DNA from: Minisyncoccia bacterium | GTDB taxonomy: Bacteria > Patescibacteriota > Minisyncoccia > Phycocordibacterales > UBA9973 | Assembly (NCBI GenBank): GCA_049287045.1 | Contig: JBAQFC010000010.1 | Span: forward strand, 78,179-142,178 | Length of the DNA: 64,000 nt | Direction: 5' to 3' | Part shown: positions 2,563 to 26,833 of the stretch, one piece after another | How the letters are laid out: the number at the start of each line of letters is the position of its first letter | How positions within the stretch are numbered: position 1 is the first letter of the stretch | Notes under the pieces: generated by a model | The model's input: the letters and a program-made list of their open reading frames with translations, nothing else | Told to the model about the DNA's origin: nothing | Database searches by the model: none | Translations under genes and position numbers: made by a program

Positions 2563-2835
2563 ATGCCAACAGAAAAAACTTACCCCTATACATTCGACCA
2601 GTTAAGACAATTCAAAAAAGAAATACAGGAAGCAGGAGGAGTAGATGAACTGATGTTCAGAAAAAGTGCTTTGAAAAGAAGAAACGGAATGATAAACATT
2701 GTTACCTATCCTGATATTGAACGATACAAAGAAAAATATTTAACAGGAGTATATGAATCACTTCGTCCTATTTATACAACAGAAGTACCTTATGTTTTCT
2801 GGAGTAAATTATACGAATTATTAAACAGAATATGA
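2563..2835 (+). CDS. Hypothetical protein.
   Basis: ORF. Its 4-nt overlap with the downstream methylase gene suggests translational coupling. Confidence 0.4.
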   Translation: MPTEKTYPYTFDQLRQFKKEIQEAGGVDELMFRKSALKRRNGMINIVTYPDIERYKEKYLTGVYESLRPIYTTEVPYVFWSKLYELLNRI

Positions 2836-3623
2836 AACCACCTTTAACATACTACGGAGGAAAACAACAGCTCTCTAAACACATTATTTCCCTTATACCT
2901 AAACACAACCTATATTGTGAACCTTTCTTTGGTGGTGGTGCGGTATTCTTCGCTAAAGAACCATCAGCAGTTGAAATAATCAACGATACCAATGGAGAAC
3001 TCATTAATTTTTATAAGGTTATCAAAACAAAATTCAGCCAGCTTGAAAAAGAAATCAGTTTGACACTACACAGCAGGGAATACCATCAGGCAGCAAAGAT
3101 TGCATTAGGTTACCCCCATTTGTTTGATGAAATAAAACGGGCATGGGCTGTTTGGACATCGGCAAACCAAAGCTTTGGTTCCATTCTCGGCGGTAATACC
3201 TGGAGATGCGATTTTAAACAAAATACTTCTGCCAGGCAGTTAAGAAATAAAAGAGAAAACTTCACTAACGAATATGCAAAACGATTAGAACAAACCCAGA
3301 TTGAATGCAGGGATGCTTTAGATGTTATTCGTTTAACAGACAACAAGGATACTTTCTTTTATATTGATCCGCCTTACTATAACTCTAATATGGGGCATTA
3401 TAAGGGATATACAAAAGAGAATTTTGAAAAATTACTTCAAGTGCTTTCCGGAATTAAAGGAAAATTTTTGTTAAGTTCCTACCCCTCTGAAATCCTTGAT
3501 AAGTACATCAAAAAACACAAATGGCAGACTAAAGAGATTGATAAACAGTTGTGTTTATCTGCTTATAAGATTGTGAAAAAGAAAAGAAAAATTGAGGTGC
3601 TGACGGGGAATTATGAGATATAG
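2832..3623 (+). CDS. dam: DNA adenine methyltransferase, Dam/D12 class (N6-adenine). Orphan, with no adjacent restriction enzyme.
   Basis: 'YYGGKQQL', 'EPFFGGGAVFF' (SAM-binding FxGxG) and catalytic 'DPPYY'. Confidence 0.85.
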   Translation: MKPPLTYYGGKQQLSKHIISLIPKHNLYCEPFFGGGAVFFAKEPSAVEIINDTNGELINFYKVIKTKFSQLEKEISLTLHSREYHQAAKIALGYPHLFDEIKRAWAVWTSANQSFGSILGGNTWRCDFKQNTSARQLRNKRENFTNEYAKRLEQTQIECRDALDVIRLTDNKDTFFYIDPPYYNSNMGHYKGYTKENFEKLLQVLSGIKGKFLLSSYPSEILDKYIKKHKWQTKEIDKQLCLSAYKIVKKKRKIEVLTGNYEI

Positions 3624-7289: not shown

Positions 7290-9425
7290 ATGCCAAAAGT
7301 AAATGATTCATATAAAATCAATGTTGGAGCCTCTTTTTTGCCACTTGAGAAAGCAATTATAATTAAAGACTCCAATGTTTTCATTGATAATAAACACCAC
7401 GAAACTTATATTGAAATAGAAAATATTTCTGAACTAATTACAGAAGAAGAAACTGCAATAAAAAGTTTTCAAGAAAAACTATTTAATTTGCCAATTGACT
7501 CTGATACGAATCCTGTTGAAAATAGCTTGACTCCAATTCAAGAAATCAGCCCTGAAACAATTAAATTAGTTGCTCCAAATGATATTCAACCAGGTTTACT
7601 GAAAGAAGAACGAGAATTAATTGCCGCTGAAATTATCAAGAGAAGAGCAAAAATTGAATTATTATTACGAAGTAAAAACAATTTATTTTTAAAAATTAAA
7701 GATTTTGATTCTGCCACCATTATTGATTCTGCCTCTACCACAATTTCAAAGGCAGATTCGGAAATATTAAGACTTGGAACAGAGCTCAAAACGACCGAAG
7801 TAAAACATAATGAATTGAAGGCTTTACCAACTCCCGATGAACTTCAGAAAGTTGAGTTAACGAATTCCACACAAACCATTAATGATATTAAATTAAAAAT
7901 AAAGGATTTTGAGAACAAGAAAGTTGAATCTCAAAAACTTGTTGATGATCTAAAACAGCCTTTAATCGAAAAATATACAAAAGACATTTCTGAACTTCAC
8001 AAACATATATATGGCTTAATTCAAATTCCATTAATGAATTTTTTACCAAAAATTGTTTATTGGGAACATGGTGCAAAATATATATTGCAATCTGAGACAT
8101 TGTTTACGGAACTCCTTAATAAAACAAGCTTAGAAGATATTTCCAGACCACTTGTAAATGTTTTTAGAATCGGGTTGTATATTCATACAATCGAGGAACT
8201 AAAAGAAAAAATCATTGAAATCCAAATCGACCCTGGTGAGCGAAGCAGATATGAAGCTACTTTAAATGAAAAAATTAACAAGTATATTAAAAAAGTCTGG
8301 TGTGATTATGACCAAGATTTAAAAATTTCATTGGAAAAAGACCAAATTCGAATTCAAATTTTTGACCCAAGTAAAAATGGTGCAAGTTTCTATAATATGG
8401 AAGATAGAAGCCAAGGATGTAAAACATTTTTGTCTTTTTTATTAACTATTGGTGTAGAAGCGGAACATGGTGTAATTAAAAACACGATTCTTTTGTTAGA
8501 TGAACCAGAAACACACTTGCATCCTTCGGGAGTGAGATTTATGCTTCAAGAACTAATTAAAATATCAGAAAAGGGTAATTTAGTCATCTACGCAACCCAC
8601 TCGATATTTTTAATTGATAGAAATAAATTTGATAGACATGTTATTCTTAAAAAAGAAAAAGAGAATACTACTATTAAACCATCAAATGTTGGAAGAATTG
8701 GTTATTTCATGCAAGAGGAGGTATTGTATGGCACATTGGATTTCAATTTAAAAAATGATTTTTCATCTACAAATGAATATAATTTTGTATTCGAAGGCGA
8801 TGGGGATGTTATTCTCTTTGAACATTTTTATGACAAAATTCTTTCAAAAGATGCAAATAGACCTTATCAATTAAAATCAACTTCTTTCCATCAAGGAGGC
8901 AAATGTTCTGACATCCAAAAATATTTAACCAATAGACCAATTCAACTCGGAACAAAGTGGGTTTTTATCTTAGATAAAGACAATGCTGGAGATGGTCTTA
9001 AAAAATTCATAGAAGGAAAATATAAAAATTATTTAAATAGTGACATTTTTGTATTTCAATATGACAATAAGGGGAAGAAATCAAAAGAAATAGAGTTAGA
9101 GGATCTTTTTGCCCCACAATTTATAATAGAAACATATTTAGAGACTGCAAAACAGCTTACTTGTTCAATTGATGAAATCGCTTTAAAAAAACTTGTAACT
9201 GAAGATGACAATTATATTACTTACAATGATTCTATCATTTCAGATCATATTATTGGAGAAAGGAAGTCTGAATTTAAAGGAAAATTTAAAGAAATATTTA
9301 ATACAAAAATTAAATTAAGTTGTGAAGGGAATAAAAATGAGGTGAGTTTTAAAAAAATATTTCCGGAATATTACAAATGGGTAACAGAAGTTACTGCGAA
9401 ATTAAATTCCTGCAACAAAGCATGA
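7290..9425 (+). CDS. OLD-family ATP-dependent endonuclease: ABC-ATPase signature, Walker B and H-loop plus C-terminal TOPRIM. No Walker A in this ORF.
   Basis: Signature-like 'RSQGCKTFLSFLL'. Walker B 'LLLDEPETHLHP'. H-loop 'YATHS'. TOPRIM-like 'VFEGDGDV' and 'ILDKDNAGD'. Confidence 0.65.
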   Translation: MPKVNDSYKINVGASFLPLEKAIIIKDSNVFIDNKHHETYIEIENISELITEEETAIKSFQEKLFNLPIDSDTNPVENSLTPIQEISPETIKLVAPNDIQPGLLKEERELIAAEIIKRRAKIELLLRSKNNLFLKIKDFDSATIIDSASTTISKADSEILRLGTELKTTEVKHNELKALPTPDELQKVELTNSTQTINDIKLKIKDFENKKVESQKLVDDLKQPLIEKYTKDISELHKHIYGLIQIPLMNFLPKIVYWEHGAKYILQSETLFTELLNKTSLEDISRPLVNVFRIGLYIHTIEELKEKIIEIQIDPGERSRYEATLNEKINKYIKKVWCDYDQDLKISLEKDQIRIQIFDPSKNGASFYNMEDRSQGCKTFLSFLLTIGVEAEHGVIKNTILLLDEPETHLHPSGVRFMLQELIKISEKGNLVIYATHSIFLIDRNKFDRHVILKKEKENTTIKPSNVGRIGYFMQEEVLYGTLDFNLKNDFSSTNEYNFVFEGDGDVILFEHFYDKILSKDANRPYQLKSTSFHQGGKCSDIQKYLTNRPIQLGTKWVFILDKDNAGDGLKKFIEGKYKNYLNSDIFVFQYDNKGKKSKEIELEDLFAPQFIIETYLETAKQLTCSIDEIALKKLVTEDDNYITYNDSIISDHIIGERKSEFKGKFKEIFNTKIKLSCEGNKNEVSFKKIFPEYYKWVTEVTAKLNSCNKA

Positions 9426-9569: not shown

Positions 9570-11264
9570 TCATTGTAATAAAGATCGCCAATAATAAGGG
9601 AAAACCATTGTCCTATAATGTCGAGATGCAAGGAGCCCCATAAAAGGGAGTCCGTTTTTAAAAATTTCCAGTTCTAATTCAGGGCTTAAATTCTTCATAG
9701 AAATTTCTTGAACCATCTCGTCCTTATAGTCTTCTATGTTGTCATATAGTTCAATACTGTGTTTCGTTTTTCCGTGATTTTGATCTGAATTTTTAATGAA
9801 AAGTGATTTTTCAATTTCAATATCAGGATACCAGAGCTGGAGATTGATTTCAGGAAAATGTAATTTTACCATTCTCCGAATATCACTATATAAATCGGAT
9901 GAATTTAAAATTATACACCATTCAGCTAATACGGTCAATAAAATTGATGATTGAGGTTTTTCGGTTTCACCATAAACCTTTGCTTCAATTAATTTATCAT
10001 GGTTTTCATAAAATAATGGAAAAAAACTTGTTCTTGAATAAGTTATTTCCATTGTAATTATTATTCGCTTAAGCCATATCCTTATTGTATCTAAGCGATC
10101 TGTTTTATATAAAAATAAAAATCCTAAATTGATTTCTATGGAATGTGAATCATAAACTGGATAATTGCAACCAGCGTTGTTATTAATAAATTCGTCGATA
10201 GAATTTGAAAAAACTGAAATCATTGAATTAATACTATCCACATGAAATTTAATTACATCATTATTATCTTGAACTTTTAGGGTTTCCCCCAGGTAATAAT
10301 AATTTAATCCAATCGTTGACATAATACCAATATATTCGTAGCAAACTAAACTATACTCAGTCTGGTTTGCCCTAGACACGCTTGCAAACGAATCTTTAAC
10401 AGCGCAATATTTTATTGTTTTCTCGGCATACGAATGTTGGATATTTATGAGAGTTTCAGTTATCCCAATAAATTGTCGAATAAGTTTATTGTCATTCATA
10501 CCATGTTCCTCTAAAATAAATCTCCAGGCGAGCAAAGTCGCTTTTTCAGCAGTGAGCAAGGCATTCCTAATATTATTTTGTTCTTGCGCCCATACGAAAA
10601 TTATATTTGTACAAACATTGAGCAAACTTAATCTTTTATATTTTTCAGAAGTCTTAGCTTGAACAGATTTGTATTTAAATAAAATGTTATTAAAAAGTTC
10701 AACCACATGAGATAAATCATAATCACTAATGTCAATGAAAGCAAGGGACTTTCTTAGCAAAAGCAAAGAACTATCGGGGAGTAAGGATTCATTAAAAAGA
10801 TATTGTTCGGATAATAATGTTATTTTGTCTACATCCCAATCTACTAAATGGATTTTTTTCGTCGAATTTTTATTTTTATATCCATTCCATGCCGGAATTG
10901 CAGTCTGCTCAATAATTCCATTAAGAGCGAAAATAATTTTGATTGGTAGCTTTTTATATTCTTTTGCAATATTCGAGGGGATATATACATCAAATATATC
11001 ATCTAAGCTTGCTTTAATATCATTTTTACCTGAGTTCCAATTATTCCGGTCTAGATTACCTCTTTTCACTGAAAGTAAAAATATTTTTTTTATACCATCT
11101 TCTGGATCAATTCCAACGGCCATAATATCTACGCCATGTTGGCGGCCCTTTTGAGGGCGTGATTTGGGCTCCATATTCATATGAAACAATAGATTTACTA
11201 GTAGGGTATCTAGCTCACCATCTTCTTTCAAAATTGTTATATAGTCCTTAATAATTGCTTTCAT
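9570..11264 (-). CDS. Hypothetical 564-aa protein, second gene of a two-gene operon. N-terminus has a possible Mrr/PD-(D/E)xK-like fold.
   Basis: 'GRQHGVDIMAVG...KKIFLLSVKRG' resembles the D...(E/Q/S)xK nuclease core. ATGA start/stop overlap with the upstream gene at 11264. Confidence 0.45.
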   Translation of the reverse strand: MKAIIKDYITILKEDGELDTLLVNLLFHMNMEPKSRPQKGRQHGVDIMAVGIDPEDGIKKIFLLSVKRGNLDRNNWNSGKNDIKASLDDIFDVYIPSNIAKEYKKLPIKIIFALNGIIEQTAIPAWNGYKNKNSTKKIHLVDWDVDKITLLSEQYLFNESLLPDSSLLLLRKSLAFIDISDYDLSHVVELFNNILFKYKSVQAKTSEKYKRLSLLNVCTNIIFVWAQEQNNIRNALLTAEKATLLAWRFILEEHGMNDNKLIRQFIGITETLINIQHSYAEKTIKYCAVKDSFASVSRANQTEYSLVCYEYIGIMSTIGLNYYYLGETLKVQDNNDVIKFHVDSINSMISVFSNSIDEFINNNAGCNYPVYDSHSIEINLGFLFLYKTDRLDTIRIWLKRIIITMEITYSRTSFFPLFYENHDKLIEAKVYGETEKPQSSILLTVLAEWCIILNSSDLYSDIRRMVKLHFPEINLQLWYPDIEIEKSLFIKNSDQNHGKTKHSIELYDNIEDYKDEMVQEISMKNLSPELELEIFKNGLPFMGLLASRHYRTMVFPYYWRSLLQ

Positions 11265-13189
11265 TAGTTCAATGATTCGTATCTCATTCTAGAACGGAAT
11301 ATTTCAAAGCCTGCTGGATCAATATATTCAGCCCTTGGCATTTCAAAACTGAAGTTTACCGACCGCATACGGCCTTCATCTGTATAACCTTTGCTATTTT
11401 TTGAAAACCAAATTGGCCCTGATCTCAAAACTATATTTTTTGCTAACTGCTCAAATATATTTTCCTTACGTGCTGTATTCATCCTTTTTGATTGCTGGTT
11501 ATCAAAAGCATTATTAAAACTACGTTTTCTTGTTTCAGAACCATTTAATTCTTTTAAGATTGGTAAATCTTTTAGATCATCATAATACTTATCTACTCTA
11601 TTAACAATTCTTTGTAATAATTTCTTTTTAGTTCCCTTACTAATACTAATTTCTGGTTTGATGAAAACAGTTAATGTAGAAGGATATGTATAGCATATAT
11701 AATCTACGAATAAAGTTTCTAAATTATTTGCTTGCTGTTTTAAATGTTTAGAATCTAATATTGATAGCGTTAAAGATGCTAATGGCTCCTTTGCATATAT
11801 AAATCCCATTATGCTTCCAATAGTCTTTCCAATTTCTAAATCAGAATAGGAGTTAAGAATCACACAATCTAGTTTAAAAATATTCTTACCTTTTCTAGAC
11901 GTAATACTCATTAATGCATTCATTAAGTTTTTATCAGAACGGTTAAACCATGGTGTAATAATTGAGCAGAACCAGGGAAAATAACTCCCTATAAATTTAG
12001 ATATTATAGGTTCCAAGCTATTGATTTCTTGTCCATTTACTAGCCATGATTCTAAAAGTTTTACGACATATTCCTTTTCACCCATTTTAAGGGCATCTGT
12101 CATGTGCCAATTTACAAAATTCATAAGCTTTATATTGTCACATTTATAAGAAGATAAATTAAATGCAAGCTGTTTAATATTTTCAGTGGAGTTTTTATTT
12201 GAAGCTGAACGCCAAACAAATTCTGAGATTGGATACCTATAAGAAATTTCTTCTTTTTTTGAAAGTTCTATCAATTTCCTTTGTGAATCAAGACAAAATT
12301 TTGAAAGTGTTATAAGGCTGTATGTTACCATATATCTAATACTCTCTCTCTCATCATTAATAAAGACAATTATGTTATCGTATAAAGTTTGAGCAGTTTT
12401 AGTATTGTCTTTATAATCTAAACTACTAATCATTTGCAGCCCTGCGATTATATTCTCAATTTTATTGGTCTGTAAAAGATCTAATATTTTATCCTGAAAA
12501 ATTTTTATGTTTTTATATTTATAAAGTCCCTCAACTAAAGCACCTAGATATTTAAGGATAACTTCGTTTTTAGGTAAGAATAAATTTTCATAAAGTGTTT
12601 CAGCAAAACTAAGATTCAAATTAGGTATGTCTTTTAACAAGGTGAAAATCTCGTTTTCGGCTCCATCACCTGTAGTTTTTAAGCTAATAAACTTTAGAAT
12701 TTCACAAAACTCCTCGATTGAAAGATTAAGATAAGGGTAAACATTAATAAAACTATGGTAATTTGCCCAAAAATCATTTTTAGGATCGGTTAGAATATCG
12801 ATTATTTTTTTCTTTTTGACTTTGTTTAAAAGAAAAGTAAAATATTCAACTACATATTCTGGTTTCATTTTAAACCTATTATCGAACTTTAGCTTATTAA
12901 GTTGATTGAAGATTTCGAGATGATTACTTGTTTCAACTTTGGACAAATAATATGCAGCAACGAAAAAATTAATAACAGCTGTATTGCAAAAAATTAATTT
13001 TGAATCTTGTTTTGTGACAAATGGAGGGAAATCCTGAAAGTCTTTACTGTTTTTTTTGATTGAAATAAAAGAATCTCCCTTTTCAAAACATTGCATAGCA
13101 TATTGCCCCAATAATTTTGAATTGTCGGAACATTTTCCAACATAAGAAACTAGAACTTCAAGTTCTGATTTGGTAAAAATTAAAATCAT
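11264..13189 (-). CDS. Hypothetical 641-aa protein, first gene of the two-gene operon. Alpha-helical repeat-like, no P-loop.
   Basis: Long ORF. No Walker A/B, nuclease or other motifs recognised. Confidence 0.45.
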   Translation of the reverse strand: MILIFTKSELEVLVSYVGKCSDNSKLLGQYAMQCFEKGDSFISIKKNSKDFQDFPPFVTKQDSKLIFCNTAVINFFVAAYYLSKVETSNHLEIFNQLNKLKFDNRFKMKPEYVVEYFTFLLNKVKKKKIIDILTDPKNDFWANYHSFINVYPYLNLSIEEFCEILKFISLKTTGDGAENEIFTLLKDIPNLNLSFAETLYENLFLPKNEVILKYLGALVEGLYKYKNIKIFQDKILDLLQTNKIENIIAGLQMISSLDYKDNTKTAQTLYDNIIVFINDERESIRYMVTYSLITLSKFCLDSQRKLIELSKKEEISYRYPISEFVWRSASNKNSTENIKQLAFNLSSYKCDNIKLMNFVNWHMTDALKMGEKEYVVKLLESWLVNGQEINSLEPIISKFIGSYFPWFCSIITPWFNRSDKNLMNALMSITSRKGKNIFKLDCVILNSYSDLEIGKTIGSIMGFIYAKEPLASLTLSILDSKHLKQQANNLETLFVDYICYTYPSTLTVFIKPEISISKGTKKKLLQRIVNRVDKYYDDLKDLPILKELNGSETRKRSFNNAFDNQQSKRMNTARKENIFEQLAKNIVLRSGPIWFSKNSKGYTDEGRMRSVNFSFEMPRAEYIDPAGFEIFRSRMRYESLN

Positions 13190-13688: not shown

Positions 13689-16600
13689 ATGGGAATTATG
13701 ACTACAGATAAATGCTTTATTACTTCTTTGCCTGTTAAAAATATTCCATCCAATATTGATGCTTATGAGTATTTACTAAATTTTAATGACAGAGAATTTA
13801 CTCTTCGATATGATGGGAGAGCAGACTGGAATACAATAATAAAGGGAGATGCAAAGATTGTTCTCCAATCAATGTTATTTAATAACCGATGGCCTATTGA
13901 TACTGATTCTGTTATTACTCCGGAATTGGTTGAAAGAACCCTTCGTATTGTAAAACACCCAAAAGAATTTGAAGATAAAGTATCTTACTATTTAGAATAT
14001 GCATATGAAGCGGGTGGAAAAGAATATAATGCTGTTATTTATAAACTTTCTGATTATGAGATCGCCTACTCAAAAGATGAGAACGAATTTACTAGAATAA
14101 TTCAGGCACTCATCTCAAAACAATTTATTTCTCTTCTTCCTGCACACTCAAGTTCAGTTAAGGCAGAGGGTTCATTTGAATTGTTGGAGCCGGGGAGAGA
14201 TATGGTTAAAAATATTCAATCAAAAAGGCAACCAAAGATTATTACTATAACCCCTACGGGGAAAAAAATCATAAAAAAAATACACCTACCTCTTAACGAA
14301 CGTCCATCTATTCATATATGTTTTGTAGAATCGGATAAACCCATTGCCGAAAAACTCAGAGATCTTTTTTTAGAAAATAGCTTTACTACTTCATTAACAG
14401 AAATAAAAGAGGAAACATTGGCCTACTCAAGTGTATTTAATCTTAGAGATAGTATTGAACAACGAAAATCAAATTATTTTGTTTTTGTTAAAAGTCACTC
14501 GTCTGATATTAATAATGGTATAGGAAGTGCTATTGATATTGCTATTGCAACACATAGAAATTCCCCCGACAAAGCTAGATTTATATACATTGCGAGTGCA
14601 GATGATAGCAAATACAGCACAAGACCGTTATTAGAGGATTATTTAAAACAATTTTTTGATATCAGAATATTGGATGAGAGGGAAAGAATGCTTCTTGACA
14701 TATTCTCTGATTGGAAGACCAGACAGAACAAGATATTACCAGCAGAAAAACTAACTTCAACAGTCTTGCTGCTCAAATGGTTATGGAAAATATTTACTGT
14801 TTCGCAGAAAAATCCAATAACTATTACTTATTCTCAAATAAAAGAATTTATTAGTTCGGAAGAACAATTAAAATCATTCTTATCGGAACTTGAAAATCAA
14901 CAGCTCATCACAATGCAATTGTATGATGGGCTTGACGTTGATCAATATCGGTATGAGATCACACTAATGAATAATATACCTGATTGGCTGAGTAGGGAAA
15001 TTTCAAATATAGAGCAGTCTAATGCTGGGAAACTGAAAAGTATCAACGAAAGCAATAAAGTCTATAACTTTCCGAAAGTTTCACTTACAGACAATGAATT
15101 ATTTTGGTTGAAAATTTCGTATGAGAAATTTCTTAAGAATGAAACATTTAATTTGCATGAAGAACTTGCAAAACACTGGGATAAACTCCCAAAAGATTTT
15201 GACCCATCTCAGATTGACCAACGTCTTTTGATAGGTGGTTATACAATAACATTGCTTGGTATCTGGCACGTAAATCCTTCCTCTGAAATTTTTGGAAATA
15301 CTGACAAAACAATATTTATTATTCGTGAATTGCTTATAGAAAAAAGTAATCGGAATGTTATTACATCTAAAGATATTCAAGCTAAAAATTCTGCCTTAAC
15401 CAATGATGACATATTAAAAAGCATAACAATCCTTTCACAGTTCAGGGGTTTCATGCATCAACATGGACACAATCCAGAAACGTTTGAGTCTAATATATCA
15501 ATACGTGATGGTTCAAGTTATGATAAGTTCAGGCAGTACAATGGAATTGAAGAATTAGTGAATGAATTTTTTAAAAAGAATAAATCACAGTATTCTGATT
15601 CAAATGAAACAAACCAAAGCACAAAAGAATTTAAATTGAAAAATATAGTGGATTCTTTGAATTTAAATGATAGAGCATTTCAAAAAAAATCTCAAGTCAG
15701 TTTACGAGACAAAACACAAATCGATACTATATTAGGAGTCAAAGAAATTGCTAAAGAAATAGCTGAGATAATTGACATAATGCCAAATGAAAAAGGAATG
15801 ATGATGGGTATCTTTGGCAAATGGGGACGTGGTAAAACAGTTTTTATGTCTCAAATATGGGAAAACTTAAAGGAAATAAAGTTAAAAAACGAGGTACAAT
15901 ATGAAAGAGTGGATTTTCATGCATGGCAATATCAAGAAACCCCCGCTTCTTGGGCTTATTTGTATGAGCGTCTGGCAGAAAAATATTATAAAAAACCTGA
16001 AAAAATATTCACAAAAGATTGGTGGGAATATTGGAATAGGATTATAAAGCTAAATATTAAAAGGCAAGGATACACTCCCATTATTAAATCGATTTCTGTC
16101 ATTTTATTTGCTCTCTCTATTACAATTGGAGGAATAGCGCAATGGGAATGGGTATTTGCATTAATTGGTATTCCGATGGTTGGGTCAGCACTGATTGTAA
16201 TACTTTCAAAATTTAAAAAAGAGTATAGCACTAAGGCGTTTGATTTAATTAAAAAATATGGATTAAAGCATAGTTATAAGGATACTATGGGCATCCAAGC
16301 TGAAATTCAGAAAGAGGTTGTTCATTTAGTTAAAACATGGATTCCTGTGGTGAAGGTTGAAAAAGGCAGCTCGGATGAAAAGTATAAAAAAATAATTTTA
16401 TTTGTGGAAGATGTTGATCGTTGTGCTGAGGAAAAAATAATTCAAAACATAGATGCCCTGAGAATAATGTTGGAAGATGAAGAAGTAGCAAAGAGAGTTA
16501 TTGTAATTGCTGCTATTGATGAGCAAGTATTAAAAAGGGCGATCAAGGCAAAATATTTTAAACTTTTGGATTGCGAAAATTATTCTAACGGAGCGGGAAC

Positions 16601-17318
16601 AAATAAATTTGATGAACTTGCCAAGTTAACAAATGAATACTTAGACAAACTTTTTATAACAGGAATAAAACTTGGCACCCTGTCTGCGGAGCAACGGGAC
16701 GAATTTGTTGTTGAATTGACAAAACATGATAGACAAAATCTTTCAGTAAAAAAACTTTATGAAGATGAATTCCCTTCAGCGAGGTCAGAAAATAATGATC
16801 AGTTGGATTTTGCCACCATTGATGGAGATTTGGTATTTAAAGACGGGGATATTGCTCTCGAAAACCAAAAAGGGGAGATTAAAATAATTGAGCAGATACA
16901 AAAAAATAAAACCGTTACGCTTGAAAATTCAACTGAAACTGTAGCTTTTGAGAAACTGACAGATGGAGAAATAAGTATACTTAGAGGTTGTGTTAATGAT
17001 TGGGACGAAGCAACTCCAAGAAAAATTAGAATATTCTATTATCGGTATCTGATAGCAAAAAATTTATTACTAAATCGATACCAAAAACTAAGTTGGAAAA
17101 ATATATGGCTTCATCCGAAATACAGTAGCGTATTTGCCCAGCTTATTATTAAGTATGGTGAGTTATATAACCCTTCTCTAATCACGGAGCATAGATTGAG
17201 GACAAACACTTTGCCACTTAATGAAGTTGTAAAAATTGATATGTTTGGTGACTTTACCGTGAAAAACCAAGATTATATTGAAATGTTGAAAATTTTAGAA
17301 ATGGTAATTGCCTATTGA
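13689..17318 (+). CDS. KAP-family P-loop NTPase (1209 aa) with intra-domain TM helices and a long N-terminal extension containing a possible TIR-like segment.
   Basis: Walker A 'GKWGRGKT'. KAP-type Walker B 'ILFVEDVDRC'. TM insert 'ISVILFALSITIGGIAQWEWVFALIGIPMVGSALIVIL'. N-terminal 'SIHICFVESDKPIAEKL...NYFVFVKS' is flavodoxin/TIR-like (weak). Confidence 0.75.
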   Translation: MGIMTTDKCFITSLPVKNIPSNIDAYEYLLNFNDREFTLRYDGRADWNTIIKGDAKIVLQSMLFNNRWPIDTDSVITPELVERTLRIVKHPKEFEDKVSYYLEYAYEAGGKEYNAVIYKLSDYEIAYSKDENEFTRIIQALISKQFISLLPAHSSSVKAEGSFELLEPGRDMVKNIQSKRQPKIITITPTGKKIIKKIHLPLNERPSIHICFVESDKPIAEKLRDLFLENSFTTSLTEIKEETLAYSSVFNLRDSIEQRKSNYFVFVKSHSSDINNGIGSAIDIAIATHRNSPDKARFIYIASADDSKYSTRPLLEDYLKQFFDIRILDERERMLLDIFSDWKTRQNKILPAEKLTSTVLLLKWLWKIFTVSQKNPITITYSQIKEFISSEEQLKSFLSELENQQLITMQLYDGLDVDQYRYEITLMNNIPDWLSREISNIEQSNAGKLKSINESNKVYNFPKVSLTDNELFWLKISYEKFLKNETFNLHEELAKHWDKLPKDFDPSQIDQRLLIGGYTITLLGIWHVNPSSEIFGNTDKTIFIIRELLIEKSNRNVITSKDIQAKNSALTNDDILKSITILSQFRGFMHQHGHNPETFESNISIRDGSSYDKFRQYNGIEELVNEFFKKNKSQYSDSNETNQSTKEFKLKNIVDSLNLNDRAFQKKSQVSLRDKTQIDTILGVKEIAKEIAEIIDIMPNEKGMMMGIFGKWGRGKTVFMSQIWENLKEIKLKNEVQYERVDFHAWQYQETPASWAYLYERLAEKYYKKPEKIFTKDWWEYWNRIIKLNIKRQGYTPIIKSISVILFALSITIGGIAQWEWVFALIGIPMVGSALIVILSKFKKEYSTKAFDLIKKYGLKHSYKDTMGIQAEIQKEVVHLVKTWIPVVKVEKGSSDEKYKKIILFVEDVDRCAEEKIIQNIDALRIMLEDEEVAKRVIVIAAIDEQVLKRAIKAKYFKLLDCENYSNGAGTNKFDELAKLTNEYLDKLFITGIKLGTLSAEQRDEFVVELTKHDRQNLSVKKLYEDEFPSARSENNDQLDFATIDGDLVFKDGDIALENQKGEIKIIEQIQKNKTVTLENSTETVAFEKLTDGEISILRGCVNDWDEATPRKIRIFYYRYLIAKNLLLNRYQKLSWKNIWLHPKYSSVFAQLIIKYGELYNPSLITEHRLRTNTLPLNEVVKIDMFGDFTVKNQDYIEMLKILEMVIAY

Positions 17319-17988
17319 TTTAAACAAAAAAGTTTTGAATTCTATCTTAAAATTTAAACAAATGAAAGTTTTATTATCCTCATATTATCCATTACGTCAT
17401 ACCGCTGAAGGCAAAAAGGCAGTGCAATTGCATGAGCTAAAACCTTATATTGATGGATCATGTAGAAGAGAACCGGATTTTGAAAGTAAATTGCCAAGTA
17501 TTACTTCTTTATGTAGAAAAGAAAAACTTATTGGAAGATTAGATGAGGGTGATATTGTCATTTATATTACTAATGGTGGAAAGGGTAGGCGAAAATTAGT
17601 TGCTATTCTTGAAGTGTTTAAAATCTTTGATTCTCATATTCAAGCTGCGACATACTTTAATAGCGTTGGTATAGTACTACCAAATAACTGTATTGTTGAC
17701 GGGAATTTATGCAAGCCATATAACCAAACTCATGGTATGGTTAGTTGTTACAATGAATGGGGTAATATGGATATAAACTTGTGGGATGCAGAATATAAAA
17801 AAAGAGCAAGAGACTTAGGAAAATTTGCTATTTGCAAAGTATGGAAAAACGAACTTGAGTTAAATAAGCCGAGAAATATATCAAACAAAGAGTTAACAAA
17901 AATATTTGGAAGAATACCAGGAACCATGAACCCACCTAAACTAACAGATGAAGAATGGGGGAAATTTAAAACGTGGTTAGGTAAATAA
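17308..17988 (+). CDS. PUA-like (EVE/ASCH-like) domain protein, overlapping the KAP NTPase gene by 11 nt.
   Basis: 'GDIVIYITNGGKGRRKLVAILEV' resembles the EVE/PUA beta-core. Overlap suggests translational coupling. Confidence 0.35.
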   Translation: MPIDLNKKVLNSILKFKQMKVLLSSYYPLRHTAEGKKAVQLHELKPYIDGSCRREPDFESKLPSITSLCRKEKLIGRLDEGDIVIYITNGGKGRRKLVAILEVFKIFDSHIQAATYFNSVGIVLPNNCIVDGNLCKPYNQTHGMVSCYNEWGNMDINLWDAEYKKRARDLGKFAICKVWKNELELNKPRNISNKELTKIFGRIPGTMNPPKLTDEEWGKFKTWLGK

Positions 17989-18053: not shown

Positions 18054-18080
18054 AAAACCCCTTGAAAATCAAGGGGTTTT
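18054..18080. terminator. Bidirectional rho-independent terminator.
   Basis: Stem CCCCTTGA/TCAAGGGG with loop AAA, flanked by AAAA/TTTT. T-runs follow on both strands (stronger on minus). Confidence 0.6.
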
Positions 18081-18082
18081 GT

Positions 18083-18122
18083 GTAGCGAAAAGGGGAGTT
18101 GAACCCCTGACCTCAGGGTTAT
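18083..18122 (-). other. tRNA-like 3' fragment (T-arm plus acceptor 3' half). Candidate attachment-site remnant of the adjacent integrative element.
   Basis: Minus strand reads ...CAGGGGTTCAACTCCCCTTTTCGCTACAC. T-stem GGGG/CCCC with T-loop TTCAACT, then a 7-nt acceptor strand, then the terminator. No complete cloverleaf could be folded upstream. Confidence 0.4.
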
Positions 18123-18194
18123 GAAACGAGCAAGAACCCCTGTATTTGCTGTAAACAGGGATACAAAAGTTGACAAATAGCGACAAAAACGAAC

Positions 18195-20904: not shown

Positions 20905-21183
20905 ATGACAGTCGAACTTATTTCATTAGACCACATCAATGAACAATACTTCCAATATGTTGACAAAAGGAGTTGTAAGAATTGGCTCTTAGCAAAAGGC
21001 TTATCAATAATAAAATTGGGAAAGAAATATTTTGTTAAGGAAGAGCAATTTAATGCAGTTCTAAATAGGATAAGCAACAGTGGTAAAACAATTTCAGCAG
21101 TAAAGTCTAAATCAGTAAAAAATCGATTAACACCATACAATGAAATCTATAATGACTTGCTGAGGAATCTAAACGATGTATAA
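20905..21183 (+). CDS. Excisionase-like HTH DNA-binding protein (Bacteroidetes mobile-element type).
   Basis: Small HTH protein ('NWLLAKGLSIIKLGKKYFV') directly upstream of, and overlapping, the integrase gene. Confidence 0.5.
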   Translation: MTVELISLDHINEQYFQYVDKRSCKNWLLAKGLSIIKLGKKYFVKEEQFNAVLNRISNSGKTISAVKSKSVKNRLTPYNEIYNDLLRNLNDV

Positions 21184-22603
21184 TGCCACACACCAAATGA
21201 GTAAACCGATTAAAATACCACAAAACATAAAAGGATTGAAATTATGGTGTCCGGCATGCAGTGAAGAAATCGGAACGACAAACAGGTGCAAGCAGACGGG
21301 TGGATTAGCGACAAAATGTCCAAATGCGGAACGCCATGTATACAGGGTAGTTGTATATGAACCGGGGAGTGGAAAGCGGAGGGTAAAAATAATTAAGGAA
21401 AAGAAAATGGATTTAGTGATAAAGGCAGCCGTTTTATTCAGGGATGAAATTAAAAACGGGAAATATATAGAGCAAGCTGAAATACCACATAATTATGAAG
21501 AAGAAAAAGGAAGTTTAAAATTAATAGAAGCGATGACTTTGTATAGCGCATTTTTAGATTGTAAGCATGGAGCAGCCCACACATTAAGGTCGAGAACGAT
21601 GGGTCACAAAAAAGAATTAATGCGAAGCATTATACTGTTTGCCAAGGCAATTAAAAAACAGGGAATCGATCCTGAACGGTTAAGAATTGAAAAAATAACA
21701 CAAGAGCATATAGGCTTTTACCACACATATTTATTGAGTGATAAAAAGTATTCCAACTGCACATATAACAATCGTATGAATAATTTGCGAGGATTCATTA
21801 ACTACCTGAACAAGCATGAAGGACTGGATATTAATAATCCCTTTAATACGGTTCAAAAAAAGCCAACCAGTACGATTATTAAAACAATTGAACCGGAAGA
21901 GTTTAATGCCTTACTAAACATCATTACACCTGGACGGGGCATACAAACATTATCAACAGGAGAGAAGAAAAATCATTGGCACCCCTTTCTAAAGGAATCT
22001 TACATATTAGGATTATTAACGGGTTTAAGAAGAGAACAGCTCGTTACCATGCGGTTCAAGGACATTCAGGAAGATGCCCAGGGAGTACCCCTGATTATCG
22101 CATCTAATAACCTAAAGGTAAATAGAATAATGAACGCGGAGGAAACAGGTGATATAAGAATTACCCCAACACCGGTAACGCCACAACTTCGCCAATTTTT
22201 AGAAGATGAATTAAATTATGCGGCGAATCGTGACAGTGATAATTTTCTGATAGCGCCCAATAGTGAACTTAAAAGAAAGACGATAATGGATATTATCAGT
22301 AAAAGTTTTACCCACTACTGGAAACAGCTTGATATGGATGTTTCAAAAGACATCAGTTTTGCAAACTTAAGAAAAACGTATATCACAAAAATGACATTGG
22401 CAGTAGGTGATAACGCTAGGCATCTGACAGGACATGCTAATCAGGAAGTATTAAACAAGCATTATATAAATAAAGAATTAATCGCACGTGTAGCAAGCAA
22501 TCATAACATTTTCCCTGAACTTGATATGGAAGCAATAAAAAGAAAAAACGAAATCGAAAAACTCAGATTACAACAACAACAAAATATTTCAAAAGACAGA
22601 TAA
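21176..22603 (+). CDS. Tyrosine site-specific integrase/recombinase.
   Basis: Box I 'TGLRREQL'. Box II 'LRKTYITKM...LTGHANQEVLNKHYI' supplies the R, H-x-x-R, H and Y catalytic residues. Confidence 0.85.
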   Translation: MYNATHQMSKPIKIPQNIKGLKLWCPACSEEIGTTNRCKQTGGLATKCPNAERHVYRVVVYEPGSGKRRVKIIKEKKMDLVIKAAVLFRDEIKNGKYIEQAEIPHNYEEEKGSLKLIEAMTLYSAFLDCKHGAAHTLRSRTMGHKKELMRSIILFAKAIKKQGIDPERLRIEKITQEHIGFYHTYLLSDKKYSNCTYNNRMNNLRGFINYLNKHEGLDINNPFNTVQKKPTSTIIKTIEPEEFNALLNIITPGRGIQTLSTGEKKNHWHPFLKESYILGLLTGLRREQLVTMRFKDIQEDAQGVPLIIASNNLKVNRIMNAEETGDIRITPTPVTPQLRQFLEDELNYAANRDSDNFLIAPNSELKRKTIMDIISKSFTHYWKQLDMDVSKDISFANLRKTYITKMTLAVGDNARHLTGHANQEVLNKHYINKELIARVASNHNIFPELDMEAIKRKNEIEKLRLQQQQNISKDR

Positions 22604-25378: not shown

Positions 25379-26833
25379 ATGATAACAAAAATCTTTGATA
25401 TGATTATATCTGTAATCGAAGGCACACTCAAAACTATCTTTGAAGTATTGGAATCAATGGTGAGCAGTCTGTCTTCAAAGCAAAACGAATACAAAGCGGA
25501 TTTTGCATCCCAAGGGACTTTACTTTCAAGCTGGAATAATGGTTTTTGTTTAACTGGAAATAAAAACCTTTCTTTAAAGCATTCTTTCCAAAATGCCCTG
25601 ATTATAGGAGGTACAGGAGCCGGTAAATCCAGTGTTGTATTAATACCTTGTCTTTTCTCAATGAAAGGATCTTTTATCGTCCATGATCCATCCGGTGAGT
25701 TATATACCAAAAGTGCGGGCTACCTAGAACAAAAAGGATACGAAATTAAAATATTGAATTTCGCACATCCTGAAATTTCTTCCAACTATAACCCATTATC
25801 AAGAGCAAAAAACTCTACCGATATACAAAAAGTTGCTTCCATGTTGGTCGAAAATTCATTAGGTGGGGGCAAGAAAGATCCTTTTTGGAATAATCTTGCC
25901 ATTTCATTAATAACCGTGCTGATTCAAATATTAAAGACTCAGCCTGAAGAATATCAGAATCTGTATAACGTGCGAAACCTTTTAAATTCCATGGGAGGCA
26001 ATCCCGAAGCAGTGGATGCGCTCTTTAGTAAGAATGCAAGTGAGAAATTATTTTATGAATATAAATCATTCCTGGCTTATGATGAAAAGGTTACCAGTGG
26101 AGTAATAGCCACATGCAAAGCTTCACTACAAATTTTCAATGATGAAAATATCGGTAAAGTAACATCAGGTGACAACATTCCATTTGAGGAGTTCAGAAAT
26201 AAACCGACTGTACTGTATATTCAAAACAGTGTAGCAGATCAGCGCTATTATAGTACCTTAACCAGTATCTTCTTTGAGCAACTATTTTCTTACACACTTT
26301 CCCGTTTTCCAAAACAAGATGAACAAAATATTTTCTTTCTGATTGATGAATGCAGTTCACTGCATTTACCAACGCTCGCGCTTGCTACGGCAAATGTGAG
26401 AAAACATAGTGCAGGAATAATGCTGATTATACAAGATTTTAATCAGATAGTTCATCATTATGGAAAATATGAAAGTGATGCAATCCGAGCAAATTGTTTC
26501 GCCAAATTATATTTTACCGGACAAAGTTTAGAAACAGCCAAAGAATTAGAACAAATATTAGGCAAATATGAATTCAAGGACAAAGATGAAAGAAAAGTTG
26601 TCCGACCATTGATGACCAATGATGAAATAAGAACAATGAAAGAAACTCGGGCAATTCTTGTCTGCGGACATTATCCACCAATTCTTGCAAAGCTTCATCC
26701 ATATTATAAAAGCATACGATACAGAAAGTACAGTTTAATTCCGCCCCCAACCAGTAAATCAGCAAATGACATTGATATTGTTCCAGTATTGCCATTACCC
26801 ATAACAGCAAAAATCAATGAGCAAAAAAAGTAA
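25379..26833 (+). CDS. Type IV coupling protein, TraG/TraD/VirD4 family (Bacteroides MobC-like).
   Basis: Walker A 'GGTGAGKSS'. Size and family-typical context upstream of the relaxase. Confidence 0.75.
   Translation: MITKIFDMIISVIEGTLKTIFEVLESMVSSLSSKQNEYKADFASQGTLLSSWNNGFCLTGNKNLSLKHSFQNALIIGGTGAGKSSVVLIPCLFSMKGSFIVHDPSGELYTKSAGYLEQKGYEIKILNFAHPEISSNYNPLSRAKNSTDIQKVASMLVENSLGGGKKDPFWNNLAISLITVLIQILKTQPEEYQNLYNVRNLLNSMGGNPEAVDALFSKNASEKLFYEYKSFLAYDEKVTSGVIATCKASLQIFNDENIGKVTSGDNIPFEEFRNKPTVLYIQNSVADQRYYSTLTSIFFEQLFSYTLSRFPKQDEQNIFFLIDECSSLHLPTLALATANVRKHSAGIMLIIQDFNQIVHHYGKYESDAIRANCFAKLYFTGQSLETAKELEQILGKYEFKDKDERKVVRPLMTNDEIRTMKETRAILVCGHYPPILAKLHPYYKSIRYRKYSLIPPPTSKSANDIDIVPVLPLPITAKINEQKK

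What the first reader, a model, noticed from the sequence alone, without database searches (positions are those of the whole stretch)
13689..17988. Giant KAP-family NTPase with N-terminal TIR-like segment, coupled to a PUA/EVE-like protein
The 1209-aa protein has the KAP P-loop NTPase hallmarks (GKWGRGKT, FVEDVDRC) and TM helices inserted in the NTPase domain. Its roughly 700-aa N-terminal extension includes a flavodoxin/TIR-like beta-alpha segment (SIHICFVESD...NYFVFVKS). The next gene overlaps by 11 nt and resembles a PUA-like EVE/ASCH fold, a modified-base reader. KAP NTPases and EVE domains each occur in defence contexts, but this fused TIR-like-KAP plus EVE pair in a defence island is not a named system to my knowledge. 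A plausible model is an EVE module sensing modified phage DNA and a KAP/TIR effector.
Basis: partly seen in the sequence, partly recalled or inferred. Interest (0 to 1): 0.68.

Follow-up and report, generated by a model that had tools for sequence, protein, structure and literature searches.

The report
KAP defence NTPase beside unrelated PUA-like gene
A large membrane-anchored KAP NTPase with a TIR-like sensor module and a small PUA-like (ASCH/EVE-type) protein are both really there and both look like anti-phage genes, but they are neighbours by chance in a defence island, not a conserved two-gene system.

Summary
The 1209-aa protein is a KAP P-loop NTPase with two TM helices between Walker A and Walker B. 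Its N-terminus contains a TIR-like flavodoxin fold. The next gene encodes a PUA-like (ASCH/EVE-like) protein.

The proposed two-gene system does not hold. The 11-nt overlap comes from an upstream TTG; the real start is ATG 17362, 43 nt after the KAP stop. In 67 non-redundant loci carrying the small gene, only this window has a KAP gene. In 39 loci carrying KAP relatives, none has the small gene.

The small family's recurrent context is type I restriction-modification. RM genes lie nearby in 20 of 67 loci, and in 11 the gene sits tightly beside them, usually between hsdS and hsdM.

The KAP gene is normally stand-alone and modular. Its wHTH + TIR-like N-module is replaced by an EVE domain in one relative, and is fused elsewhere to a DpnII/MboI nuclease or ABC ATPases. 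A second unannotated domain (aa 457-632) recurs with TIR, deoxyribosyltransferase-like and cyclase domains.

Best reading: two independent defence genes in the cargo of a conjugative element, next to Olokun and an OLD-family gene. This is a new variant of known kinds, of moderate interest.

The parts
13689..17318 (+). Gene for a 1209-aa multidomain KAP-family NTPase. NCBI starts it at Met4, nt 13698.
   Evidence: ORF list and translation. Pfam KAP_NTPase at E=1e-14. The full-length family is aligned in A4 and A9.
13707..14228 (+). N-terminal domain, aa 7-180: a beta/helical part followed by a winged-helix-like part. It carries the family-invariant residues C9, Y28, W68, P91 and E133. No known family matches it.
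   Evidence: AF2 model with pLDDT mostly above 90. Invariant columns in A5. No Pfam hit at E<=1. MarR-type wHTH (BpsR) appears among the Foldseek hits. Assigning that hit to this segment is my inference from the order of secondary-structure elements.
14301..14738 (+). TIR-like flavodoxin-fold domain, aa 205-350. It has five beta-alpha units. S269 and R326 are invariant; D216 and D324 are nearly invariant.
   Evidence: Secondary structure of the AF2 model. Foldseek matches TIR-APAZ (8oz6, 8i87, 8qlp) and TIR-STING (9lmq) with probability 1.0, about 145 columns, rmsd 3.7-4.5 A. Homologue P0158 hits Pfam TIR_2 at aa 194-303 with 28.8 bits against a cut-off of 28. Aligned block.
14742..15023 (+). 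Second winged-helix-like segment, aa 352-445. It is present only in the closest relatives (P0115-P0117, P0122).
   Evidence: AF2 secondary structure: H352-372, E377-380, H391-403, E407-413, E420-426. Lengths of the cut segments in the homologues.
15057..15584 (+). Unannotated mobile 'middle' domain, aa 457-632, with motifs YxFPxIxL...WL and ITLLGIWHxDP.
   Evidence: The exhaustive search gave 405 hits, most of them to this stretch. Alignment A8. Among 81 proteins carrying it: KAP 22, Nuc_deoxyrib_tr 20, TIR_2 8, CAP12/Pycsar TIR 5, cyclases, SieB, Abi_C. No Pfam or PHROG hit.
15741..16718 (+). KAP P-loop NTPase domain, aa 685 to about 1010.
   Evidence: Pfam PF07693 at aa 685-959. NCBIfam QatA partial match at aa 675-1010.
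15816..15839 (+). Walker A motif GKWGRGKT, aa 710-717.
   Evidence: G710, R714, G715 and K716 are invariant in A9.
16077..16214 (+). Two transmembrane helices inserted in the NTPase domain, aa about 797-842.
   Evidence: Kyte-Doolittle peaks above 1.6 at windows starting 795-801 and 819-825. The sequence is IIKSISVILFALSITIGGIAQWEWVFALIGIPMVGSALIVILSKF.
16401..16424 (+). Walker B motif FVEDVDRC, aa 905-912.
   Evidence: V906, E907, D908, D910, R911 and C912 are invariant in A9.
16719..17315 (+). C-terminal region, aa 1011-1209. It is conserved across the subfamily (motif ATPRKIRIFYYRYL, ending VIAY).
   Evidence: BLASTP against P0114 covers aa 451-1209 at 38% identity. A9 consensus.
17362..17988 (+). 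Gene for a 208-aa stand-alone PUA-like (ASCH/EVE-like) protein. It carries the invariant loop D31-G-S-C-R-R-E-P-D39 and the invariant residues C51, N109, W141 and Y145.
   Evidence: Start site. 112 homologous clusters. AF2 pLDDT 94. Foldseek ASCH and EVE hits. Invariant columns in A1, whose numbering is one lower because its first sequence starts at residue 2.
18054..18080 (.). Terminator-like GC hairpin with T and A runs. It is the first such site after the small gene; none lies between the KAP gene and the small gene.

Best explanation
The region holds two separate defence-island genes that happen to lie next to each other, and are probably co-transcribed, in the cargo of a conjugative or integrative element.

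Gene 1 is a single-polypeptide KAP NTPase defence protein.
- The membrane-anchored KAP P-loop domain, with two TM helices between Walker A and Walker B, is the NTP-driven switch.
- The exchangeable N-terminal region is the input side. It comprises winged-helix segments, a TIR-like domain and the mobile 'middle' domain, and it probably binds invader nucleic acid or a nucleotide-derived ligand.
- The TIR-like domain more likely serves ligand binding or assembly than canonical NAD+ cleavage.
- Activation would act through the KAP and C-terminal part at the membrane.

Gene 2 is a stand-alone PUA-like (ASCH/EVE-type) protein.
- Its invariant acidic, basic and aromatic pocket probably binds or processes a modified base or nucleotide.
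- Its family normally works with type I R-M systems or on its own, not with KAP.

Shown: domain identities, folds, modular architecture and gene contexts.
Inferred: anti-phage function, the sensor versus effector roles, the ligand, and co-transcription.
For: KAP hallmarks:
- Pfam match, Walker motifs and the TM insertion.

The N-module is exchangeable:
- aa 7-348 recur in about 35 clusters.
- They are fused to KAP in 26 of 34 proteins, to the DpnII/MboI REase in P0140 and P0141, to Hypoth_Ymh in P0143, and to ABC ATPases in P0158 and P0185.
- The closest word-index relative, P0114, keeps aa 451-1209 at 38% identity but carries an EVE reader domain in place of the N-module. This argues that the N-terminus is the sensing end.

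The middle domain keeps defence company:
- It is fused to TIR, CAP12/Pycsar TIR, deoxyribosyltransferase-like, cyclase, SieB and Abi_C domains.

The KAP gene is stand-alone:
- In 39 related loci no small-family homologue is found.
- The next gene is usually on the opposite strand.

The small protein is PUA-like:
-.

The small family's context:
- 20 of 67 non-redundant loci have type I or IIG R-M genes within 8 kb. KAP appears only in the window.
- In 11 loci the gene is tightly embedded, with gaps of -65 to +32 nt, mostly between hsdS and hsdM.

Defence-island and mobile setting:
- OLD-family gene and Olokun OloA/OloB lie immediately upstream.
- A tyrosine recombinase, a TraG coupling protein and a D12 methyltransferase are in the window.

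Published precedents:
- KAP NTPases with fused regions give Walker-dependent phage defence: EF_KAP and three metagenomic KAPs (PMC13552941), and Tmn (10.1101/2022.08.21.504612).
- Stand-alone EVE and ASCH genes associated with type I R-M have been described (PMC7641849).
Against: - No experiment bears on either gene.
- In this genome the two genes are only 43 nt apart, on the same strand, with no terminator-like site between them. A lineage-specific functional link therefore cannot be excluded.
- The sensor role of the TIR-like domain is inferred only from domain swaps. The absence of an obvious catalytic Glu rests on a by-eye alignment to a remembered TIR consensus, so NADase activity is not excluded.
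- Forty-seven of 67 small-gene loci have no recognisable R-M genes, so R-M association is not obligatory.
- The Foldseek TM-scores for both fold calls are modest (0.4-0.56 for the small protein). The N-terminal model also matches other flavodoxin or Rossmann-like folds.
Confidence: 0.6

Rival explanations
1. One reading: a dedicated two-gene system in which the PUA/EVE-like protein senses modified phage DNA and hands the signal to the KAP/TIR effector.
For: - The genes are on the same strand with a 43-nt spacer and no terminator-like site between them. A hairpin follows the second gene.
- Both products are defence-type domains.
- An EVE domain is fused to a KAP relative (P0114), so a PUA-like reader working with this KAP chassis has a precedent.
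Against: - The pairing is unique to this window: 0 of 66 other small-gene loci have a KAP gene.
- 0 of 39 KAP-relative loci have the small gene at E<=10.
- The closest KAP relatives, P0114 to P0117, have unrelated downstream genes.
- The claimed overlap is a start-codon artefact.
Confidence: 0.1
2. The KAP protein is an abortive-infection NADase. The TIR-like domain is the catalytic effector that degrades NAD+ or makes a signal nucleotide, and it is switched on by the KAP NTPase.
For: - The fold matches NADase TIRs of SPARTA and TIR-STING.
- A homologue passes Pfam TIR_2.
- The adjacent middle domain is elsewhere fused to bona fide TIR and CAP12/Pycsar TIR effectors.
Against: - The window protein itself gives no Pfam TIR hit at E<=1.
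- The residues invariant in the family are S269, R326, D216 and D324, not a glutamate. The consensus Glu in AxExH is Ala287 here.
- The same N-module is fused to a restriction nuclease (P0140, P0141). There the nuclease is the obvious effector and the module would be the input.
Confidence: 0.2
3. The small protein is an accessory subunit or enzyme of restriction-modification, here an orphan copy without its R-M partner. It might read or edit m6A-type marks, or guard the R-M system in the way PrrC does.
For: - The nearest homologues (47-48% identity) sit between hsdS and hsdM with overlapping or 1-nt-spaced stop and start codons.
- 20 of 67 loci have R-M genes.
- Precedents exist: stand-alone EVE and ASCH with type I R-M (PMC7641849) and PrrC embedded in a type I locus (PMC12707154).
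- No hsd genes were detected in the 64-kb window.
Against: - Most loci (47 of 67) show no R-M genes within 8 kb, so the protein can evidently function alone.
- No biochemical data exist.
- This rival is compatible with the best explanation for gene 2. It differs only on whether the window copy is functional without R-M.
Confidence: 0.3

Closest known systems
KAP P-loop NTPase anti-phage proteins: EF_KAP and metagenomic KAP fusions (PMC13552941), Tmn (10.1101/2022.08.21.504612), PifA, QatA
   Same: - Single large proteins with a KAP P-loop domain and TM helices inserted after Walker A.
- Fused to uncharacterised regions.
- Located in defence islands or on mobile elements.
- Pfam KAP_NTPase match here, with weak PADLOC PifA and QatA matches.
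   Different: - The fused modules here are N-terminal: wHTH, TIR-like and a mobile domain. EF_KAP carries a C-terminal unknown region.
- The NCBIfam QatA score is 46.6 against a cut-off of 600, and no QatBCD genes are present.
- The PifA match covers only about 95 of 720 profile positions.
TIR-domain defence effectors (SPARTA TIR-APAZ, TIR-STING, Thoeris ThsB-type TIRs)
   Same: A flavodoxin-like five-unit beta-alpha fold that gives the best structural matches. One family member passes Pfam TIR_2.
   Different: - No Pfam TIR hit for this protein.
- No conserved catalytic glutamate is evident.
- It is coupled to a KAP NTPase rather than to Argonaute, STING or SIR2-type partners.
Stand-alone EVE and ASCH (PUA-like) proteins associated with type I R-M systems (Bell et al. 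2020, PMC7641849); ZmASCH; the BapA ASCH-like deglucosylase (PMC13160076)
   Same: - A small PUA-like protein whose best fold match is ZmASCH.
- A recurrent position inside type I R-M operons.
   Different: - About 60 residues larger than ASCH or EVE domains.
- Not recognised by the Pfam ASCH or EVE models.
- It has its own invariant DGSCRREPD loop.
- It is found mainly in Bacteroidota, Acidobacteriota and other bacteria, whereas the described cases are mostly archaeal.
- BapA has two barrels and more than 252 residues.
EVE-KAP fusion P0114 (closest relative found by the word-index search)
   Same: It shares the middle domain, KAP domain, TM hairpin and C-terminal region: aa 451-1209 at 38% identity.
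   Different: Its N-terminus carries an EVE domain (Pfam E=4e-8) instead of the wHTH + TIR-like module. It is also stand-alone; the next gene is an unrelated 360-aa ORF 441 nt downstream.

Membership tests
KAP family P-loop NTPase (PF07693) | Profile match above the curated cut-off | tested here: met
   55 bits against a cut-off of 20, aa 685-959.
KAP family P-loop NTPase (PF07693) | Walker A and Walker B motifs with transmembrane helices inserted between them | tested here: met
   GKWGRGKT at 710-717 and FVEDVDRC at 905-912. Two hydrophobic segments at about 795-843.
QatABCD system (QatA) | QatA equivalog score, and qatB, qatC and qatD genes alongside | tested here: not met
   NCBIfam QatA scores 46.6 bits against a cut-off of 600. 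The neighbours are Olokun, an OLD-family gene, the PUA-like gene and a TPR-like protein.
PifA / Tmn single-gene KAP defences | Full-length similarity to the named protein | tested here: not met
   The PADLOC PifA match covers only profile positions 19-113 of 720, which is the P-loop region. No Tmn model hit was reported by PADLOC.
TIR domain | Sequence-profile match (Pfam TIR or TIR_2) | tested here: inconclusive
   The window protein has no hit at E<=1. One of 34 N-module homologues, P0158, matches TIR_2 positions 1-113 of 122 at 28.8 bits against a cut-off of 28, over the aligned region. A profile of the segment finds only designed Rossmann 2x3 proteins in the PDB.
TIR domain | TIR three-dimensional fold | tested here: met
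   AF2 pLDDT 87.5. Foldseek matches TIR-APAZ and TIR-STING at probability 0.99-1.0, 142-149 columns, rmsd 3.7-4.5 A. Other flavodoxin-like folds also match.
TIR domain | Catalytic glutamate and NAD+ hydrolase activity | not testable with these tools
   No structural superposition was available. By eye, no invariant Glu is present. The consensus Glu of AxExH is Ala287 in this protein. Activity needs an assay.
PUA-like superfamily (ASCH/EVE) | Sequence-profile match to ASCH or EVE | tested here: not met
   No Pfam hit for the window protein even at E<=10. Three of 46 family members give sub-threshold EVE hits, the best at E=0.012. The profile finds nothing in PDB sequences.
PUA-like superfamily (ASCH/EVE) | PUA-like beta-barrel fold | tested here: met
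   Model pLDDT 94. ZmASCH matches at E=1e-4, probability 1.0, TM 0.39-0.56. Then MJECL36, PH0355, PF0455, PD-T4-3, and the EVE structures 2gbs and 1zce. ASCH- and EVE-annotated viral proteins appear among the weak BFVD hits.
PUA-like superfamily (ASCH/EVE) | Binding of a modified base or nucleic acid | not testable with these tools
   Needs binding or activity assays.
Proposed 'TIR-KAP + EVE' two-gene system | Conserved co-occurrence of the two genes | tested here: not met
   KAP is present in 1 of 67 small-gene loci, the window itself. The small gene is present in 0 of 39 KAP-relative loci.
Type I R-M embedded accessory gene (PrrC-like arrangement) | Location inside an hsd operon | tested here: not met
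   This is true of 11 homologous loci but not of the window copy. No hsdR, hsdM or hsdS homologue was found among the window ORFs at E<1e-3.

The most novel reading that the evidence does not exclude
The 208-aa DGSCRREPD protein may found a previously unnamed PUA-like family. It would read or process a methylome-derived base or nucleotide for type I R-M systems. In this lineage it would have been captured as a trans-acting sensor for a KAP NTPase whose relatives carry the equivalent reader (EVE) as a fused domain. That would make this locus a split version of an EVE-KAP defence protein.
Probability: 0.1. Interest if true: 0.7.

Novelty: new variant of a known kind. Interest (0 to 1): 0.4.

Why it matters
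KAP NTPases have only recently been shown to be anti-phage proteins, and their inputs and outputs are unknown.

- **KAP subfamily.** The same KAP chassis carries either a wHTH + TIR-like module or an EVE reader. The TIR-like module is also found on a restriction nuclease and on ABC ATPases. This gives a concrete handle on which end senses.
- **Middle domain.** The unannotated domain at aa 457-632, with several hundred relatives, is a candidate new conflict-system domain. Its fusion partners are TIR, Pycsar-type TIR, deoxyribosyltransferase-like and cyclase domains.
- **Small protein.** It defines an uncharacterised PUA-like family of more than 110 clusters, repeatedly embedded between hsdS and hsdM. 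That is a testable lead on how type I R-M systems use modified-base readers.

None of this is categorically new. The appealing 'new two-gene system' reading is not supported.

Tried and rejected
- **Word-index homology searches.** The search with the whole KAP protein found only itself and P0114. The search with aa 1-460 found nothing. The exhaustive search was needed.
- **Profile searches against PDB sequences.**
  - Small family: no match.
  - TIR-like segment: only designed Rossmann proteins.
  - P0158 TIR region alone: nothing useful.
- **A second conserved partner for the small gene.** Clustering of neighbours and a jackhmmer search with the 167-aa neighbour found it in only three distinct loci, so it was rejected.
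- **Other named families.** QatA, PifA and Tmn membership were considered and rejected on scores and partners. PHROGs, PADLOC and NCBIfam give nothing for the small protein.
- **tRNA-like sequence.** It lies downstream of the small gene. ARAGORN finds no tRNA, and the sequence is a tmRNA 3'-end-like fragment.
- **Metagenome scan.** It failed with the 34-sequence alignment because no stretch was conserved enough. It worked with 16 closer sequences.

Full report
**1. What is in the sequence**

The region holds two same-strand ORFs.
- The first, 13689..17318, encodes 1209 aa. NCBI annotates the identical protein from Met4 (P0113, 'P-loop NTPase fold protein').
- Two strongly hydrophobic segments at about aa 795-817 and 819-843 lie between the Walker motifs.
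- Pfam KAP_NTPase matches aa 685-959 at E=1e-14, 55 bits against a cut-off of 20.

- All 46 aligned homologues start at the position of the Met encoded at 17362.
- NCBI annotates 208 aa from that Met (P0001).
- The gene is therefore 17362..17988, with a 43-nt spacer after the KAP stop at 17318.
- No terminator-like site lies between the two genes. A GC hairpin with T runs follows at 18054-18080. Co-transcription is plausible but inferred.

**2. The small protein is PUA-like**

- No Pfam, NCBIfam, PADLOC or PHROG model matches it.
- It has 112 homologous clusters of about 205-240 aa, all unannotated.
- The family has an invariant loop, D-G-S-C-R-R-E-P-D (residues 31-39 of the 208-aa protein), plus the invariant residues C51, N109, W141 and Y145 (that alignment numbers one lower).
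- AlphaFold2 with this alignment gives pLDDT 94.1 and pTM 0.90.
- In Foldseek against the PDB, the eight best hits are the ASCH domain protein of Zymomonas mobilis: E from 1e-4, probability 1.0, TM 0.39-0.42 on the query and 0.51-0.56 on the target.
- The next hits are MJECL36, PH0355 and PF0455, the 5hmC-specific endonuclease PD-T4-3, the EVE proteins 2gbs and 1zce, and VcaM4I.
- Against BFVD the weak hits include ASCH- and EVE-annotated viral proteins.
- At a permissive threshold, 3 of 46 family members give sub-threshold Pfam EVE hits, the best at E=0.012.
- A PUA-like (ASCH/EVE-type) fold with about 60 extra residues is therefore supported. Membership in the Pfam ASCH or EVE families is not.

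**3. The small gene is not a KAP partner**

A scan of one genome per species gave 74 loci. I called ORFs, clustered the neighbours and searched with seeds.
- Among 67 non-redundant loci, a KAP homologue occurs only in the window itself.
- Twenty loci carry type I (HsdR, HsdM, HsdS) or MmeI-type IIG genes within 8 kb.
- In 11 loci the gene is tightly embedded, with gaps of -65 to +32 nt to an hsd gene, typically hsdS-X-hsdM.
- Pfam scans of the immediate same-strand neighbours confirm this. Methylase_S is the commonest upstream family, and N6_Mtase with HsdM_N the commonest downstream.
- The remainder are single occurrences of defence-type domains such as GmrSD_N, SLFN_AlbA_2, caspase, Fic, HNH and RadC, together with unrelated genes.
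- No second conserved small partner exists.
- The window has no hsd genes.
- Stand-alone EVE and ASCH proteins associated with type I R-M have been described, mostly in archaea (PMC7641849). PrrC is the classical accessory gene embedded in a type I locus (PMC12707154).

**4. Anatomy of the KAP protein**

The word-index search found only one relative, P0114 (1069 aa).
- It aligns over aa 451-1209 at 38% identity.
- Its N-terminus is different and contains a Pfam EVE domain at E=4e-8.

An exhaustive HMMER search with aa 1-680 found 405 proteins. They separate the region into two mobile units.

(a) aa about 7-348, the 'N-module'.
- It occurs in about 35 clusters.
- 26 of 34 are KAP fusions of 990-1470 aa.
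- P0140 and P0141 fuse it to a DpnII/MboI restriction-endonuclease domain, P0143 to Hypoth_Ymh, and P0158 and P0185 to ABC-type ATPases (AAA_15, AAA_21).

(b) aa about 457-632, the 'middle domain', with motifs YxFPxIxL..WL and ITLLGIWHxDP.
- It is not in Pfam or PHROGs.
- Among 81 carriers it is combined with KAP (22), nucleoside 2-deoxyribosyltransferase-like domains (20), TIR_2 (8), CAP12/Pycsar TIR (5), nucleotide cyclases, GGDEF, SieB and Abi_C.

AlphaFold2 of aa 1-455 with 33 sequences gives pLDDT 87.5. The model shows:
- an N-terminal beta/helical part plus a winged-helix-like part (aa 7-180);
- a five-unit beta-alpha domain (aa 205-350);
- a second winged-helix-like segment (aa 352-445).

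**5. Is the beta-alpha domain a TIR?**

- In Foldseek against the PDB, the recurring high-probability local matches are the TIR domains of SPARTA TIR-APAZ (8oz6, 8i87, 8qlp, 8u7b; probability 1.0, 142-149 columns, rmsd 3.7-4.5 A, about 15% identity) and TIR-STING (9lmq).
- Other flavodoxin or Rossmann-type folds and a MarR-type wHTH (BpsR) also match.
- The homologue P0158 matches Pfam TIR_2 over nearly the whole profile (positions 1-113 of 122) at 28.8 bits, just above the cut-off of 28. The match falls exactly in the region aligned to aa 200-320 of the window protein.
- The window protein itself has no TIR hit at E<=1. Sequence-profile searches of the PDB give nothing specific.
- The 'TIR-like fold' call is supported.
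- The family-invariant residues are S269 and R326, with D216 and D324 nearly invariant. The only frequent Glu (AxExH) is Ala287 in this protein.
- I could not superpose structures, so whether a catalytic acid exists remains open.

**6. The KAP gene stands alone**

- The genes after P0114, P0115, P0116 and P0117 are unrelated to each other and to the small protein.
- A metagenome scan gave 35 further loci of this KAP subfamily.
- A six-frame search of all 39 loci with the small-family HMM found nothing, even at E<=10.
- About 24 of these loci have at least 700 nt downstream of the KAP gene. The next ORF there is mostly on the opposite strand.

**7. Setting**

- Upstream lie an OLD-family ATPase gene (7290-9425; PADLOC Old at E=1e-16) and Olokun (OloB at 1e-139, OloA at 3e-54).
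- Elsewhere in the window are a tyrosine recombinase (21176-22603), a TraG-type coupling protein (25379-26833), a D12 adenine methyltransferase (2832-3623) and a phage Rep-O-like gene.
- A tmRNA 3'-end-like fragment lies at 18086-18109 on the minus strand.
- This is the defence cargo of an integrative or conjugative element, where unrelated defence genes are routinely adjacent.

**8. How it most likely works (inference)**

Published work shows that KAP NTPases fused to unknown regions protect against phage and need their Walker motifs (PMC13552941). Tmn is a further KAP-type defence (10.1101/2022.08.21.504612).

In this subfamily the KAP chassis, the middle domain and the C-terminal region are constant. 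The extreme N-terminus is swapped between an EVE reader and the wHTH + TIR-like module, and that module also serves a restriction nuclease and ABC ATPases.
- The simplest reading is that the N-terminus is the input: it recognises nucleic acid or a ligand.
- The membrane-anchored KAP NTPase is the switch.
- The output lies in the KAP, TM and C-terminal part.
- A catalytic NADase role for the TIR-like domain is the main alternative.

The small protein is most simply an independent PUA-like reader or enzyme for a modified base or nucleotide.
- Its invariant pocket has acidic, basic and aromatic residues.
- The family usually cooperates with type I R-M.
- Recent examples of PUA or ASCH modules in defence are the m6-dAMP-sensing PUA-Cal-HAD system (10.64898/2026.01.15.699771) and the ASCH-like deglucosylase BapA (PMC13160076).

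**9. Verdict**

- All three domain assignments are supported at the fold level.
- The interpretation as a coupled, conserved two-gene system is not supported.
- Novelty: a new variant of known kinds. The KAP fusion defence protein has an undescribed wHTH + TIR-like N-module, and the PUA-like family associated with type I R-M is unnamed.
- Interest is about 0.4. It rests mainly on the modular KAP subfamily, the unannotated middle domain, and the R-M-embedded PUA-like family.

Noticed in passing
window 9570-13189 (-) and 7290-9425 (+): A complete Olokun pair (OloB 564 aa at E=1e-139, OloA 641 aa at E=3e-54) and an OLD-family ATPase/nuclease gene lie directly upstream. They confirm a defence island.
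   Followed up: partly
window 18086-18109 (-), within 18085-18145: A 22-nt T-arm and acceptor-like sequence, GGGGTTCAACTCCCCTTTTCGC, matches the 3' end of the Rfam tmRNA model (positions 346-363, E=0.004). No tRNA or tmRNA gene is found in the window. It is probably an attachment-site remnant marking an island boundary just after the small gene.
   Followed up: partly
window 15057-15584 (aa 457-632 of the KAP protein); P0145-P0262: A widespread domain of about 175 aa with no Pfam or PHROG model. It is fused in other proteins to TIR_2, CAP12/Pycsar TIR, nucleoside 2-deoxyribosyltransferase-like, cyclase, GGDEF, SieB and Abi_C domains. It is a candidate new conflict-system domain.
   Followed up: partly
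L006 10001-13210 (P0114): An EVE-KAP fusion protein shares aa 451-1209 with the window protein. It shows that a PUA-like reader can occupy the N-terminal slot of this KAP subfamily.
   Followed up: yes
P0140, P0141, P0143, P0158, P0185: The wHTH + TIR-like N-module also occurs on a DpnII/MboI-type restriction endonuclease domain, on a Hypoth_Ymh domain and on ABC-type ATPases.
   Followed up: partly
L001 7496-7999; L028 8626-9132; L050 8603-9298: An unannotated protein of 167-231 aa lies directly beside the PUA-like gene in three distinct loci, once inside a type I R-M operon. It is not found elsewhere.
   Followed up: yes
window 21176-22603, 25379-26833, 2832-3623, 1662-2126: A tyrosine recombinase, a TraG/T4SS coupling protein, a D12-class adenine methyltransferase and a Rep-O-like protein. 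The window looks like an integrative conjugative element carrying the defence genes.
   Followed up: no
whole window; P0001, P0113: NCBI assigns the identical proteins to a 'Minisyncoccia bacterium' MAG. The nearest homologues of the small gene and many KAP-relative contexts are Bacteroidota, for example Flavobacteriaceae. The bin assignment may be wrong, or the element may have been transferred horizontally.
   Followed up: no
window 13689-15068 as query: The word-index protein search returned no hit at all for aa 1-460, not even the identical NCBI protein. The exhaustive search found about 35 related clusters. This is a tool-sensitivity caveat for AT-rich, low-complexity queries.
   Followed up: no
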